From the NCBI RefSeq assembly GCF_009914755.1, contig NC_060945.1: a stretch of DNA of 64,000 bases. The stretch is one strand, 5' to 3'. The stretch is from the human T2T-CHM13v2.0 reference genome, Homo sapiens. Positions 12,196-17,261 of the stretch are shown here, piece by piece. Below the pieces are notes generated by a model that saw nothing but the letters and a program-made list of their open reading frames with translations, was not told the origin of the DNA and made no database searches. Every line of letters begins with the position of its first letter. Within the stretch, counting starts at the first letter, position 1. The translations under genes were made by a program, and so were the position numbers.

Positions 12196-13371
12196 ATATC
12201 AGCTTCATTCTACAGATGAGGAAGGCAAGCCTTGGGGAGCTTAACCAACTTGTCGAGACTCATGTATATACCAACACTGAAAAGCAGATATTCCAGACTC
12301 CCAGTCATGCCACAGGCACACCCCTCAGTGAGAGGTGGGGTTTGTAGTTGAGGCTATTTCCTGCCCAGGGAGCAGGGAGGCATTCTAGCTTCCCTGAGCT
12401 AATGTGGTTCTGCTTGTGTCTGACTTCCAGGTCTCTGCCCTTTCCAAGCTCACTAGGATGGGCTTCGGGTGTGTCAAATGCCTCAGACAGTACAGATCCA
12501 CACAGAATGGGCATATGCAACCAATCAGTGTCATAAAAAAGAAGGAAATGACTCGGGCCCCCTGTGTGTTCAACATGTCGAAGGTATCTGTGCAGCAGAA
12601 GAAAGAAGGGCAAAAGCCCCCAGTGCCACAGGCCAGAGGCAGCAGCTTGGGCCCATGTGGGAGGGTTTGCTTTCCCCTGCCAAAGTGATGGGCTGCTGCA
12701 GCCTGGGGCTTGTGGGAATCCTTCCTGGGCCTGTGTGGGAAGTGTAGGCAGGGAGAGTGCTGCTTTCCCAAGCTCATCCCAGCTACAGCTACCTTTGTGC
12801 TCTGGGATTCAGGACCCCCGAGGGGGCTGGCAGGAGAGTCTCTGTTCTCGGATGGGTTGTCACCAGGGCATACATGGGAAGTGGGCTCTCTGGAGTCACC
12901 CTCCAGGGGACAATGCCAATTCCAGACACATTTACTGGAACCCCTACACTGATGACCTTTTGTTGAGGGTTGAATTATGTCCCCAAAAAAGATACATTGA
13001 AGTCCAAACCTCTGGTGTCTATAAATGTGATTTTATTTGAAAATGAGGTTTCTATGGACTAAATTGTGTCCCTCCCAAATTCATATTTTGAAGCCCTAGC
13101 CCCCAATGTGACTATACCTAGAGACAGAGATCTTTAGGAGGTAATTAAGGTTCAATGAGGTCAGGTGGGTGGGGCCCTAAACCAACAGGAAGGACTGTGG
13201 CCTTACTAGAAAAGGAAGAAAAAGCATTTCCTCTCTTCTAGTATAAAAGGACACAGAAAGAAGGCAGATATCTACAAGCCACGAAGAGAGACGTCACTGA
13301 GAACTGAATTTGTGTACATTGATCTGGAACTTCCAGCCTCCAGAACTTGAGAAATACATTTCTGTTGTTTA

Positions 13372-15884
13372 TTTTTTTTTCATGTAATCAATTCATTTAT
13401 CATATATTTATTGAGTGCCTACTATGTGCCAGAGGATACAGCAGTAACAAAACTAGGCAAAAATTGTGCCTAAAAGAGGGAAGATGACTTTTCTTAAAGT
13501 GTGGAATAAAGAAAAGTAAGATAGCGGATAGAAGCTTGAAGTGAAAGCAGGTTCACAGGAAGTTTCTTTGGTCATTTGTTTTGTTTTTAAATAGTGGAAA
13601 GATGTATATGTTTATGGAGAAAGATTGCCTTGAAGATGCAAGAGGAAGAGATGATCAAAATTCAAGAAGAAGCAGAAAGTGATAGAATAAAGAGCACAAG
13701 TGGAGAATTAGTGTTAATGAAAAGAAGGATGCTTCCTTTGATATGAAGTGAAGGAAGAGAGAATGAGTAAAGACCAAGACTTGAAGTCCCTAGTTTAATA
13801 GAGGGAGATTTCTTCTTTTGATAGCAACAATGGTATTCTGAATTATTTGAAGACATGTCATATTTCTCTTGTGCCATTTTCCTCCCAGTTTAAACATTCT
13901 CATAACCTCTATTCCTCACATGATGTTTTTCCAGGTCCTTTATTCTTTGGCACTCTCTTCTCTGGACACATTGTATTCTGTCATTGGTCCTAAAATTTAG
14001 ATACTCACAATTGAACATACTCCTCTAGATATGGTCTAGCTAATGCAAAAGAACTGCTGCCTTCCAACTTGTTCAGACATCATATGTTTGTTGTCAAACG
14101 CTAAGTTGAGTTGTTATCTTTTAAGTTTTTTTTTTTTTTTTTTTTTTTTTTTTTTTAATTCCAAGAGGTGCCCACGTTGGCTAAGTACCAAACAGGGTAC
14201 TAGGGAATTTTACTTCTGAGTTAAATGCCATTCTAGTTGTTTTTTCTTCATCTCCAGTAAGGTTATCTTTATTCACCAGTTGTTACAATAGCTGTGGGTC
14301 TTGCTTCTCACAGTTTTATGCTGTCTGTGCTATTTTCTCTACTGATCATCACCACAATCATTATTGCTTATCATAATTGTTATCTTTATTTTCTCCTTTA
14401 ATCAAGAATCAGTCTTCCTTTATCTCATTATTCTCTTTTGCAGGCTTCAGGATAATTATGGTTGGAGTGCACTGGGGGAACCAGTGCAGCTAAGCTCTGA
14501 CATCTTTGCATCCCTTTTCCATCTGCTGTTTTGGCACTCTGGTAGAATAGATAACCTAAAAACGACTTTAAAACATCTAGAAATTTTGGATAAAATATAA
14601 CAAACATCCCTTTAAATGCACAACTGATCTTCCATGGAAGTCACAGAAATATATAACGCCAAAAAGAAGGGAAGCTGAAACCCAGGGCTGTAAACATGAA
14701 CATCATCTTCTCTCCCTTTTTCTTGTGACTTATCTTGTTTTTCTCAGCTTTGGTGCTACCAAGGCTTGACTTTAATAGGCATTTCCAATCAATGAGAGAA
14801 TTTCTTTTGCTTTCATCAACAATTCAGTTATTGATGTTAACATATATATCATTTGAGTACTTTTCTTTTTTTTATTATTATTATACTTTAAGTTTTAGGG
14901 TCCATGTGCACAATGTGCAGGTTAGTTACGTATGTATACATGTGCCATGCTGGTGTGCTGCACCCATTAACTCATCATTTAGCATTAGGTATATCTCCTA
15001 ATGCTATCCCTTCCCCCTCTCCCCACCCCACAACAGTCCCCAGAGTGTTCCCCTTCCTGTGTCCATGTGTTCTCATTGTTCAATCCCCATCTATGAGTGA
15101 GAACATGCGGTGTTTGGTTTTTTGTCCTTGCAATAGTTTACTGAGAATGATGATTTCTAATTTCATCCATGTCCCTAAAGAGCTTCTGCACAGCAAAAGA
15201 AACTACCATCAGAGTGAACAGGCAACCTACAACATGGGAGAAAATTTTCACAACCTGCTCATCTGACAAAGGGCTAATATCCAGAATCTACAATGAACTC
15301 AAACAAATTTACAAGAAAAAAACAAACAACCCCATCAAAAAGTGGGCAAAGGATATGAACAGACACTTCTCAAAAGAAGACATTTATGCAGCCAAAAGAC
15401 ACATGAAAAAATGCTCATCATCACTGGCCATCAGAGAAATGCAAACCAAAACCACAATGAGATACCATCTCACACCAGTTAAAATGGCAATCATTAAAAA
15501 GTCAGGAAACAACAGGTGCTGGAGAGGATGTGGAGAAACAGGAACACTTTTACACTGTTGGTGGGACTGTAAACTAGTTCAACCATTGTGGAAGTCAGTG
15601 TGCTGATTCCTCAGGGATCTAGAACTAGAAATACCATTTGACCCAGCCATCCCATTACTGGGTATATACCCAAAGGACTATAAATCATGCTGCTATAAAG
15701 ACACATGCACACGTATGTTTATTGCGGCACTATTCACAATAGCAAAGACTTGGAACCAACCCAAATGTCCAACAATGATAGACTGGATTAAGAAAATGTG
15801 GCACATATACACCACGGAATACTGTGCAGCCATAAAAAATGATGAGTTCATGTCCTTTGTAGGGACACGGATGAAATTGGAAAT
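13372..15884 (-). mobile_element. Composite L1PA (L1PA3-like) insertion: 5'-inverted L1 plus ~1.5 kb 3' transduction
   Basis: 15-bp TSD catttctgttgttta at 13357-13371 and 15885-15899; terminal poly(T) 13372-13380; minus-strand AATAAA at 13407-13412. Confidence 0.9.
14861..15177 (-). mobile_element. L1PA3-like 3'UTR (non-inverted part)
   Basis: 'ttattatactttaagttttaggg...catttagcattaggtatatctcctaatgc...acagtccccagagtg'. Confidence 0.92.
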
Positions 15885-15887
15885 CAT
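15175..15887 (+). pseudogene. Inverted L1 segment encoding ORF2p C-terminal (Cys-rich) remnant
   Basis: ORF 15169-15606 '[19 protein letters not shown]...[28 protein letters not shown]' and ORF 15715-15900 are L1 ORF2p sequence. Confidence 0.92.
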
Positions 15888-17261
15888 TTCTGTTGTTTAA
15901 ACCACGAAGTCTATGGTATCTGGTTATGACAACCTGAGAATACTAACTCAAGGGTCTTTCGCAGATGTCATTAAGTTGTTAAAGTGAGGTCATTATGGTG
16001 GGTCCTAATCCAAGAGAAGAGATGCATGGACAGACGTGCACAACGGGAGGACCAAGCCAAGACACACAGGGAGAATGGCCATGGGAAGATGGAGGCAGAG
16101 ATCAAAGTGAGGCACCCACAAGCCAAGAAATGGCAGGAGCTACCAGCAGCTGGAAGATGCAGAGAAGCATTCCTTCTTAGAGGTTTCAGAGAGAGTATGG
16201 TGCTACTGACACCTTGATTTTGAACTTCTAGTCTCCAGAACTATGAGAGAATAAATTTCTGTTGGTTAAGCCATCGAGTTTGTGTAAGTTTGTTATAAGA
16301 GCCCTAGGAAATAAACATATCCATTTATTCAGGAAAGCCTGCTAGAGTGCAAATATTTGGAAAAGATACTACTATGCAAATGTTTGAAAAAGATATTGCT
16401 CTTGATTCTGCCTTATGGGTTTTTCATTTCTGTAAGCTATTCTCAAAGTTTTGTTCTTGGACTACTATTGGTAATTAAGACTGCAACATGTTTGGCAACA
16501 TCAGTTGAGAACTGTTGCTCTGGGAACGTTTTCGGCAAGCCTCAGCCCTTCTTTTCCCTTGGCTTGCATTGAGGAGTTAGGTGATACTCTGCTGCTCAGG
16601 CCCAGCACCTTTATGGACCGTATTCCCCTGGTGGAATGACCATCTCTGCTTGCTCTGATTGGCTGTTGGGGTTTTCTAGCATGCCCTATTTAATATGTAT
16701 GATTTATCTCTTACTTCAGTTGGAAGGTACAGTTGCTCTGTAGTTGGCATGCAGTCATGGTGACTATGAAAATATAAAATAATGTTTTGGTTTACAGACA
16801 CTTAGAAATAAGTTGTGTCTCAAAATTGGGTGACTATTCTAGTTATCTGCTACTCAATATCCTTGTGCGAGCCCTCTTTACCCAGAATCAAACTAAACCA
16901 TGAGGGGCACTATAGAATGTCACCCCTGGGTCCAGGATACTATGGGGACTCAGAAGCCAAGCTCCCACTGGGGGATCTAGGGCATGCCCCCAAGGTAAGA
17001 TTCCCTCCTCTTTGTTCAGCAGGAAGCACCCATCACACAAGGAGGTAGGAATAAACAAGCATTCGTCAAGAACAAAAGATACAGATGTTCTGCTGGAGCT
17101 TGGATACATAGCATAAGAGGGAACAGTTCTCACAGGTAAGAGTAAGTTTTCCTCTGGTGGTGACAGTGGGACCTGTGGGGGAGAGAATTGGGAGTACTGA
17201 CAGGAAGGCAGAGTGGCTGTCCAAATGAACGGATTGTTTGCACATGGCCTTTAGGGCACGT

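What the first reader, a model, noticed from the sequence alone, without database searches (positions are those of the whole stretch)
13357..15899. Hidden 2.5-kb L1 insertion carrying ~1.5 kb of 3'-transduced foreign DNA
Seen: the MLT1A LTR breaks at catttctgttgttta (13357-13371) and resumes 2.5 kb later at the identical 15-mer (15885-15899). On the minus strand the insert reads: inverted L1 ORF2 piece, L1PA3-like 3'UTR, L1 poly(A) (~14861-14873), ~1.48 kb of non-L1PA DNA (14860-13381), AATAAA (13412-13407), then a poly(A) 26 nt later (13380-13372). The target reads GTTT(A)/AA, close to the L1 endonuclease TTTT/AA consensus. Established: read-through of the weak L1 polyA signal mobilises 3' flanks (3' transduction). 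Inference: 13381-14860 was copied here from another locus, apparently using a polyA signal within an old L2 tail. Repeat masking would show it as unrelated L2/L3/unique pieces and miss the event.
Basis: partly seen in the sequence, partly recalled or inferred. Interest (0 to 1): 0.85.

Follow-up and report, generated by a model that had tools for sequence, protein, structure and literature searches.

The report
L1 insertion carrying chr12 DNA
An old, partly inverted L1 retrotransposon on chromosome 21 carried about 1.5 kb of chromosome 12 DNA with it when it inserted, which is a clean but ordinary example of a well-known process.

Summary
The 15-mer occurs exactly twice in the window (13357-13371, 15885-15899). 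In 11 of 14 uninterrupted relatives of the flanking LTR, the two flanks overlap by exactly those 15 nt.

Read on the minus strand, the insert consists of:
- an inverted ORF2 piece (ORF2p residues 1017-1251)
- the L1 3' end (from residue 1244)
- A8
- 1485 nt of non-L1 DNA
- A9

The non-L1 DNA has one other copy in the assembly, chr12:99762354-99763833, with 2.93% substitutions. Homology starts at the base after the L1 A8. It ends 26-29 nt after an AATAAA, where chr12 continues into a GU-rich stretch. So chr12 is the parent and chr21 the retrocopy.

One prediction failed. CHM13 has no L1 within 9.35 kb upstream of the chr12 segment, and I found no sibling copies.

Best reading (0.85): twin-primed L1 insertion with a 3' transduction from a source L1 that never became fixed. 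This is a known kind of event with a published source-less precedent, so interest is low. The dating, roughly the human-orangutan split, rests on divergence figures I recalled. No primate genomes were available to check it.

The parts
13040..13371 (+). Left part of the old LTR that was the target.
   Evidence: 72-74% identical to at least 40 scored genomic copies out of 2414 candidates. Contiguous with the right flank in 11 of 14 relatives.
13357..13371 (.). Target-site duplication, left copy. It is next to the poly(A) end of the insert.
   Evidence: Exact 15-mer found twice in the window, and 0 of 100 shuffles gave 2 matches.
13372..13380 (-). Terminal poly(A) tail, A9. Up to 3 of these A's could be templated from chr12.
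13381..14865 (-). 1485 nt copied from chr12:99762354-99763833, the transduced segment. It is non-coding, 35% G+C, and its 3' end looks like an L2/MIR tail.
   Evidence: Only one other full-length copy in the assembly. 43 substitutions in 1470 aligned positions and 6 indel events. Boundaries shown. No Rfam match. No stop-to-stop frame lying within it exceeds 84 aa.
13407..13412 (-). The AATAAA that was used. Cleavage lies 26-29 nt downstream.
   Evidence: chr12 homology ends at that point and chr12 continues with a GU-rich stretch.
14126..14156 (-). Internal A31 run inherited from the parent locus and expanded here.
   Evidence: Tandem Repeats Finder result. chr12 has A12-C-A10-C at the same place.
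14866..14873 (-). A8, read as the genomic A-tail of the source L1 carried inside the read-through RNA. The L1's own AATAAA lies at 14876-14871.
14874..15182 (-). Non-inverted L1 3' end: the last roughly 32 codons of ORF2 plus the 3' UTR.
   Evidence: Matches ORF2p residues 1244-1274 at E 5e-10. 94-96% identical to the best of 2643 candidate L1 copies. Aligns to positions 791-1108 of a contiguous chr16 L1 copy.
15175..15179 (.). Inversion junction with 3-5 nt of microhomology (CTA or CTAAA) shared by both L1 pieces.
   Evidence: The two alignments overlap at 15175-15182.
15180..15884 (+). Inverted L1 ORF2 piece covering ORF2p residues 1017-1251, with one in-frame stop at 15604-15606.
   Evidence: phmmer against the PDB: E 4.7e-90 for residues 1017-1157 and E 5.5e-57 for residues 1160-1251. 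Frame shown. 97-98% identical to the best of 4763 candidate copies.
15885..15899 (.). Target-site duplication, right copy. Its first 3 nt are ambiguous with L1 sequence.
15885..15950 (+). Right part, the 3' end, of the interrupted LTR.

Best explanation
This is one L1 retrotransposition event on the minus strand, made by target-primed reverse transcription with twin priming. Its RNA was a read-through transcript of a source L1 that sat on chr12 immediately 5' of position 99762354.

Steps, each marked as shown or inferred:
1. Inferred: a source L1 lay on the chr12 + strand, ending in an A-tail at the 99762353/4 boundary. It never became fixed, so CHM13 carries the empty allele.
2. Shown by the boundaries: the RNA ran past the L1's own AATAAA and past three more AATAAA and four ATTAAA hexamers. 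It was cleaved 26-29 nt after the AATAAA of an L2/MIR-type tail, just before a GU-rich stretch.
3. Shown by the junctions: the chr21 + strand was nicked at GTTTA/AA, and its T-rich 3' end primed on the poly(A). First-strand cDNA covered the 1485-nt chr12 tag, the A8 and 309 nt of L1 3' end.
4. Shown by the anatomy: the second strand, cut 15 nt away, annealed through CAT to the L1 RNA and primed a 705-nt second cDNA in the opposite direction. The two cDNAs overlap by about 25-30 nt of L1 sequence and were joined at 3-5 nt of microhomology. This gives the 5' inversion and the 12-15-nt target-site duplication.
5. Inferred: the event is roughly as old as the human-orangutan split.

Nothing suggests that the copied DNA has a function.
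For: - The duplication and the intact target are established.
- L1 identity and ORF2p coordinates: inverted piece residues 1017-1251, non-inverted piece from residue 1244.
- There is a single parent locus. Of the 40 matches, only chr12 besides the window itself covers positions 1-1480; the other 38 are no longer than 116 nt.
- Homology starts at the first base after the L1 A8 and ends at the poly(A) cleavage site. chr12 has no tail there and continues into unrelated flanks.
- A T4 run (bottom strand CTTTTC) abuts the chr12 boundary, as expected where an L1 endonuclease nick once primed.
- The A8 between the L1 and the tag is what a source element's genomic tail would leave.
- Ages agree: 2.93% between the paralogues; the L1 ORF2 piece is 2-3% from its nearest relatives and the UTR 4-6%.
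- Twin priming is common: 18.4% (165/897) of germline L1 polymorphisms. The two cDNAs overlap in 42% (44/106) of the germline cases (PMC12016303, section 8 and Table 1 passage).
Against: - No L1 is present at the parent locus. blastn of the 1-kb L1 part against the 9.35 kb upstream of chr12:99762354 gave nothing at E 1e-5.
- No sibling insertions carry the same tag, so the postulated source L1 has no independent witness.
- The inferred chr12 nick (TTTC/G or TTTT/C) and the chr21 nick (TTTA/A) are not among the three motifs (TTTT/A, TTTT/G, TTTC/A) that PMC12016303 counts as canonical.
- The cDNA overlap of about 25-30 nt is above that paper's upper quartile of 17 bp.
- Both tails are short (A8 and A9).
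- No outgroup genome was available, so the empty site and the date are untested.
Confidence: 0.85

Rival explanations
1. Chimeric retrocopy by template switching. ORF2p began on a polyadenylated chr12 transcript that was unrelated to any L1. At or near that RNA's 5' end it jumped to the poly(A) tail of an L1 RNA. Twin priming then followed.
For: No L1 lies at the parent locus. The chr12 boundary reads C|G, a pyrimidine-purine step that would suit a Pol II start site. Chimeric retrocopies made by L1 template switching have been described; I recall this and opened no paper on it.
Against: - It needs an otherwise unexplained unspliced 1.5-kb transcript from non-coding DNA.
- The jump would have had to land within the first 8 A's of the L1 tail.
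- The T4/A4 run at the chr12 boundary is not explained.
- By recalled frequencies, such chimeras are far rarer than 3' transductions.
Confidence: 0.06
2. Two separate events. A twin-primed L1 inserted first. Later a 5'-truncated retrocopy of a chr12 transcript inserted, in the same orientation, into that L1's A-tail. The A8 and A9 would then be the split tail together with an all-A target-site duplication.
For: A-tracts flank the 1485-nt segment on both sides. A-tails are favoured L1 endonuclease targets; this is recalled. No source L1 is present on chr12.
Against: - It requires a rare non-genic retrocopy to hit one particular 17-nt tail in the right orientation.
- The segment would have to start exactly at an A-rich, endonuclease-like site on chr12 by chance.
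- The ages of the L1 part and the tag are indistinguishable.
Confidence: 0.05
3. There was no single insertion. The repeated 15-mer is a chance match, and the 1.5 kb is ancestral chr21 DNA that was duplicated to chr12.
For: None found.
Against: - None of 100 shuffles gave two copies of the 15-mer.
- The flanks rejoin into one LTR in 11 of 14 relatives.
- The chr21 copy carries the poly(A) tail exactly at a cleavage site, and chr12 does not.
Confidence: 0.01

Closest known systems
L1 3' transduction: read-through of the weak L1 poly(A) signal. Moran 1999, Goodier 2000 and Pickeral 2000 are recalled. The mechanism is restated in PMC9311842 and in preprint 10.1101/2021.07.12.451456, passages read.
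   Same: The layout is L1 3' end, short A-tract, unique non-L1 DNA, AATAAA, poly(A), all inside one pair of target-site duplications. A unique parent locus exists elsewhere. The tag is 1.5 kb long.
   Different: The parent locus carries no L1 in this assembly, so the source element is only inferred. Seven further AATAAA or ATTAAA hexamers were bypassed before the one that was used.
Mouse Pde6c-cpfl1 L1 insertion (review PMC6466679, passage in section 15)
   Same: [quoted passage not shown] The authors explain it by a transient, unfixed source L1.
   Different: That is a recent mutation in a mouse colony. This is an old, fixed human insertion with 2.9% divergence between the paralogues.
Twin priming, the proposed origin of L1 5' inversions. 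Ostertag and Kazazian 2001 was seen only as reference 14 of PMC12016303. The statistics come from PMC12016303 section 8.
   Same: An inverted 5' piece and a non-inverted 3' piece lie within one duplication pair. The two pieces overlap in L1 coordinates, and both junctions show microhomology.
   Different: The overlap of about 25-30 nt is longer than the reported median of 12 bp (quartiles 4-17). Here the non-inverted cDNA also carries a 1.5-kb transduction.
CHM13 catalogue of retroelement transductions (preprint 10.1101/2021.07.12.451456, passages)
   Same: It covers the same assembly and the same kind of event. It reports 183 highest-confidence L1 3' transductions and 18 transduced loci of all types on chromosome 21.
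   Different: The passages I read speak of the parents identified for high-confidence events and of their TE-subfamily assignments. An event with an L1-less parent would probably fall into a lower confidence bin or be missed.

Membership tests
L1 insertion by target-primed reverse transcription | L1 sequence ending at the canonical L1 3' end | tested here: met
   Matches ORF2p residues 1017-1251 and 1244-1274. The 3' UTR is 94-96% identical to many genomic L1 copies.
L1 insertion by target-primed reverse transcription | Target-site duplication flanking the whole insert | tested here: met
   An exact 15-mer occurs twice. The flanks overlap by exactly 15 nt in 11 of 14 uninterrupted LTR relatives.
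L1 insertion by target-primed reverse transcription | Poly(A) tail next to the 3' duplication | tested here: met
   A9 at 13372-13380.
L1 insertion by target-primed reverse transcription | Endonuclease-type nick site (TTTT/A-like) | tested here: inconclusive
   The site reads TTTA/AA, one mismatch from the consensus. It is not among the three motifs PMC12016303 counts as canonical, and 37% of that paper's germline L1s also lack those motifs.
L1 3' transduction | Non-L1 DNA between the L1 tail and a second, terminal poly(A), inside the duplications | tested here: met
   13381-14865 lies between A8 and A9.
L1 3' transduction | Poly(A) signal 10-30 nt before the terminal tail | tested here: met
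   AATAAA at 13412-13407, 26-29 nt before the tail. The same site in chr12 is followed by a GU-rich stretch.
L1 3' transduction | A parent locus elsewhere whose homology starts at the L1 tail and ends at the cleavage site | tested here: met
   chr12:99762354-99763833, 2.93% substitutions, boundaries exact.
L1 3' transduction | A source L1 immediately 5' of the parent segment | tested here: not met
   CHM13 has no L1 similarity in the 9.35 kb upstream. The mechanism requires this at the time of the event, not in today's assembly (precedent). Even so, the source is inferred and not seen, so I file the insertion as having the structure of a 3' transduction, with the source missing.
L1 3' transduction | Empty pre-insertion site in an outgroup species | not testable with these tools
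   No primate genomes are held. states that the assembly has no relatives here.
Twin-primed (5'-inverted) L1 | Inverted 5' piece and direct 3' piece that abut or overlap in L1 coordinates, within one duplication pair | tested here: met
   The pieces align to positions 112-818 and 791-1108 of one contiguous chr16 L1 copy. Both cover ORF2p residues 1244-1251.
Twin-primed (5'-inverted) L1 | Microhomology at the internal priming site and at the inversion junction | tested here: met
   CAT at 15885-15887 and CTA(AA) at 15175-15179.
L1PA3 subfamily | Diagnostic subfamily positions | not testable with these tools
   No repeat library or named consensus is available. Only the divergence figures are compatible with that age class.
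Serial (two-step) 3' transduction | An internal poly(A) that is absent from the parent locus | tested here: not met
   The A31 at 14126-14156 corresponds to A12-C-A10-C inside the single contiguous chr12 parent.

The most novel reading that the evidence does not exclude
The chr12 tag did not ride on read-through from an L1. It would instead be a separate chr12 Pol II transcript that ORF2p fused to an L1 RNA by template switching, or that landed in the L1's tail. That would make this a twin-primed chimeric retrocopy of L1 and a non-coding RNA, and would explain why no source L1 exists at the parent locus.
Probability: 0.1. Interest if true: 0.35.

Novelty: new member of a known kind. Interest (0 to 1): 0.2.

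Why it matters
This is a textbook-quality example of how L1 moves unrelated DNA between chromosomes, here 1.5 kb from chr12 to chr21. A repeat mask shows most of that DNA as unique sequence.

The insert also preserves about 1 kb of an L1 progenitor that has otherwise left no trace at its own locus. Old transductions can therefore record source elements that were active but never fixed.

The practical value is modest:
- The paralogue pair gives a date for the event that does not depend on an L1 consensus.
- The locus could serve as a clade marker among apes.
- Transduction catalogues that require an L1 at the parent locus would miss events like this one.

Nothing suggests that the copied DNA has a function.

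Tried and rejected
- **Serial transduction.** I suspected this from the internal A31 run. It is rejected because the run lies inside the single contiguous chr12 parent.
- **chr16 sibling.** A chr16 L1 (chr16:56826526) has the same 13 nt after its tail. Those bases are part of its own 16-nt target-site duplication, present at both ends of a 1.1-kb L1, so the match is a coincidence. Two chrX copies share only 9 nt.
- **Spliced read-through from a distant L1.** There is no AG at the chr12 boundary and no L1 within 9.35 kb.
- **Pfam.** The scan of the two ORF2 pieces returned no families. I established identity through PDB sequences instead.
- **Functional cargo.** Rfam gave no matches at E up to 0.1. 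No stop-to-stop frame lying within the tag exceeds 84 aa; a 90-aa frame runs on into the L1. No cargo was found.
- **Classic papers.** Szak 2003 and Pickeral 2000 are not held, so what I say about them is recalled.
- **CHM13 transduction table.** It is a closed bioRxiv supplement.
- **Subfamily naming.** The labels L1PA3, MLT1A and L2/MIR could not be tested.
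Full report
**Observation.** The 15-mer CATTTCTGTTGTTTA occurs exactly twice in the window, at 13357-13371 and 15885-15899. None of 100 dinucleotide-preserving shuffles gave two matches.

To test whether the two flanks were once continuous, I fetched genomic relatives of the left flank (13040-13371). 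There were 2414 candidates, of which 40 were scored, and 14 became loci L031-L044 at 72-74% identity. I then aligned both flanks to those 14 loci:
- In 11 of 14, the left flank ends and the right flank begins on the same copy, overlapping by exactly 15 nt.
- In one (L039) the right flank is shifted.
- In two (L037, L040) the right flank found no nearby match.

The target was therefore one intact old LTR, and the 15-mer is a target-site duplication.

**Anatomy of the insert, read on the minus strand.**
- Right-hand duplication copy at 15885-15899.
- An inverted L1 piece at 15180-15884, which is sense on the + strand. Its translation matches human ORF2p residues 1017-1157 (E 4.7e-90) and 1160-1251 (E 5.5e-57). 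It has a single in-frame stop at 15604-15606.
- The inversion junction at about 15175-15179, where both pieces share CTA(AA).
- The direct L1 3' end from 15182 down to 14874. It starts at ORF2p residue 1244 (E 5e-10) and runs through the 3' UTR to the L1's own AATAAA at 14876-14871.
- A8 at 14873-14866.
- 1485 nt of non-L1 DNA from 14865 down to 13381.
- A9 at 13380-13372.
- Left-hand duplication copy at 13357-13371.

Against one contiguous 1.1-kb L1 copy on chr16, the inverted piece covers positions 112-818 and the direct piece covers 791-1108. The two cDNAs therefore share about 25-30 nt of L1 sequence. The first three bases (CAT) of the right duplication copy also match the L1 sequence that would follow. 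That is the microhomology at which the second strand primed.

This is the anatomy proposed for twin priming. In long-read data, 18.4% (165/897) of germline L1 polymorphisms are 5'-inverted, and the two cDNAs overlap in 42% (44/106) of germline cases. The reported overlap has a median of 12 bp and quartiles of 4 and 17 (PMC12016303, section 8 and Table 1 passage). The overlap here is on the long side.

**Where the non-L1 DNA comes from.** I searched the window's own assembly with 13381-14860. That gave 40 scored matches from 44 candidates:
- the window itself;
- one further full-length match, chr12:99762359-99763832 on the opposite strand (96% by the tool's measure);
- 38 short matches of at most 116 nt at 74-95% identity, which are old dispersed repeats.

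A global alignment of 14865-13381 to chr12:99762354-99763833 has 1427 matches and 43 substitutions (31 transitions, 12 transversions, 8 of them CpG-associated). It also has 25 gap columns in 6 events. That is 2.93% substitutions, K2P 0.030.

The boundaries are exact:
- Homology begins at the G directly after the L1's A8.
- Homology ends at ...TTACATG, where the window has A9 and chr12 continues AAATTGTGCTGTCTTGG, a GU-rich stretch.
- The AATAAA lies 26-29 nt upstream of that end.

chr12 has no poly(A) tail and no duplication, and it continues into unrelated DNA on both sides. It is therefore the parent and chr21 the retrocopy.

On its way to the site it used, the RNA passed the L1's own AATAAA and seven further hexamers, three AATAAA and four ATTAAA. 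The site used sits in a sequence that I recognise from memory as an L2/MIR-type tail in sense orientation. Many 45-nt matches at 87-95% identity to that end fit a dispersed repeat.

**The prediction that failed.** It does not. blastn of the whole insert against the 9.8 kb ending inside the chr12 segment, and against the 6 kb covering the rest, gave one alignment each, confined to the tag. The 1-kb L1 part found nothing at E 1e-5 in the 9.35 kb upstream.

There are no siblings either. A search with the L1 end plus the first 305 nt of the tag scored all 12 candidates. Only the window and chr12 cover the tag.

A chr16 L1 has the same 13 nt after its tail, but those bases belong to its own 16-nt target-site duplication, present at both ends of a 1.1-kb L1. 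That match is coincidental. Two chrX copies share only 9 nt.

**Explanation.** The structure is the classical one for L1 3' transduction, with the source element missing. I take the source to have been an L1 allele at chr12:99762353/4 that was active but never fixed, so CHM13 carries the ancestral empty site.

In favour:
- The tag starts exactly where an L1 tail would end.
- The chr12 boundary abuts a T4 run on the bottom strand (CTTTTC), as a former endonuclease site would.
- The A8 is what a source element's genomic tail would contribute.
- Read-through from an L1 promoter explains why an otherwise non-coding stretch was transcribed at all. The tag has no Rfam match and no frame lying within it longer than 84 aa.

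Against:
- The source is unseen and has no sibling witnesses.
- Neither the chr21 nick (TTTA/A) nor the inferred chr12 nick (TTTC/G or TTTT/C) is among the three motifs that PMC12016303 counts as canonical. Even so, 37% of its germline L1s also lack those motifs.

**Rivals.** Two rivals remain at about 5% each. Both need a rare independent transcript plus an additional coincidence, and neither explains the endonuclease-like chr12 boundary.
- Template switching of ORF2p from an independent chr12 RNA onto an L1 RNA tail.
- A later, independent retrocopy landing in the L1's A-tail.

The internal A31 run suggested a serial transduction. It lies inside the single chr12 parent as A12-C-A10-C, so that idea is rejected.

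**Age.** The paralogues differ by 2.93%, or 2.4% without CpG-associated changes. That is about 1.5% per lineage.
- The ORF2 piece is 97-98% identical to the best of 4763 candidate copies, 40 of them scored.
- The UTR piece is 94-96% identical to the best of 2643 candidates, 40 of them scored.

From recalled primate divergences (human-orangutan a little over 3%, human-macaque about 6.5%), the event falls near the human-orangutan split. It predicts a filled site in African apes and an empty site in gibbon and monkeys. No primate genomes were available here.

**Comparison with what is known, and novelty.** 3' transduction and twin priming are both long established. The CHM13 repeat paper already catalogues 183 highest-confidence L1 3' transductions and 18 transduced loci of all types on chromosome 21 (preprint 10.1101/2021.07.12.451456, passages).

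The passages I read speak of the parents identified for high-confidence events and of their TE-subfamily assignments. An event with an L1-less parent may therefore have been binned low or missed.

The finding is a new, clean member of a known kind. I score interest low.

Noticed in passing
L027 1501-2641 (chr16:56826526 region): A 1.1-kb 5'-truncated L1 has a 16-nt target-site duplication, AAAGAAAAGTACTCAA. By coincidence this contains the same 13 nt that begin the chr12-derived tag in the window. Automated searches for sibling transductions could mistake it for a relative.
   Followed up: yes
window 14126-14156: A pure run of 31 A's on the minus strand. The chr12 parent has A12-C-A10-C at the same place, so the tract has lengthened and lost its interruptions in the retrocopy, or the parent has decayed. 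This happened either during reverse transcription or later by slippage.
   Followed up: partly
window 15950-16300: A second LTR of a related type lies directly after the interrupted one. It shares only its last 58 nt or so with it (13316-13371 against 16211-16268, 84% identical).
   Followed up: partly
L028 and L029 (chrX:134101647 and chrX:134067279): Two L1 3' ends with identical flanks lie in opposite orientation about 34 kb apart on chrX. This looks like an inverted segmental duplication. They share only 9 nt with the tag.
   Followed up: no
window 13381-14865: The read-through RNA passed three AATAAA and four ATTAAA hexamers before using the last AATAAA. Only the site that was used is followed, in the chr12 parent, by a clear GU-rich stretch.
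   Followed up: partly
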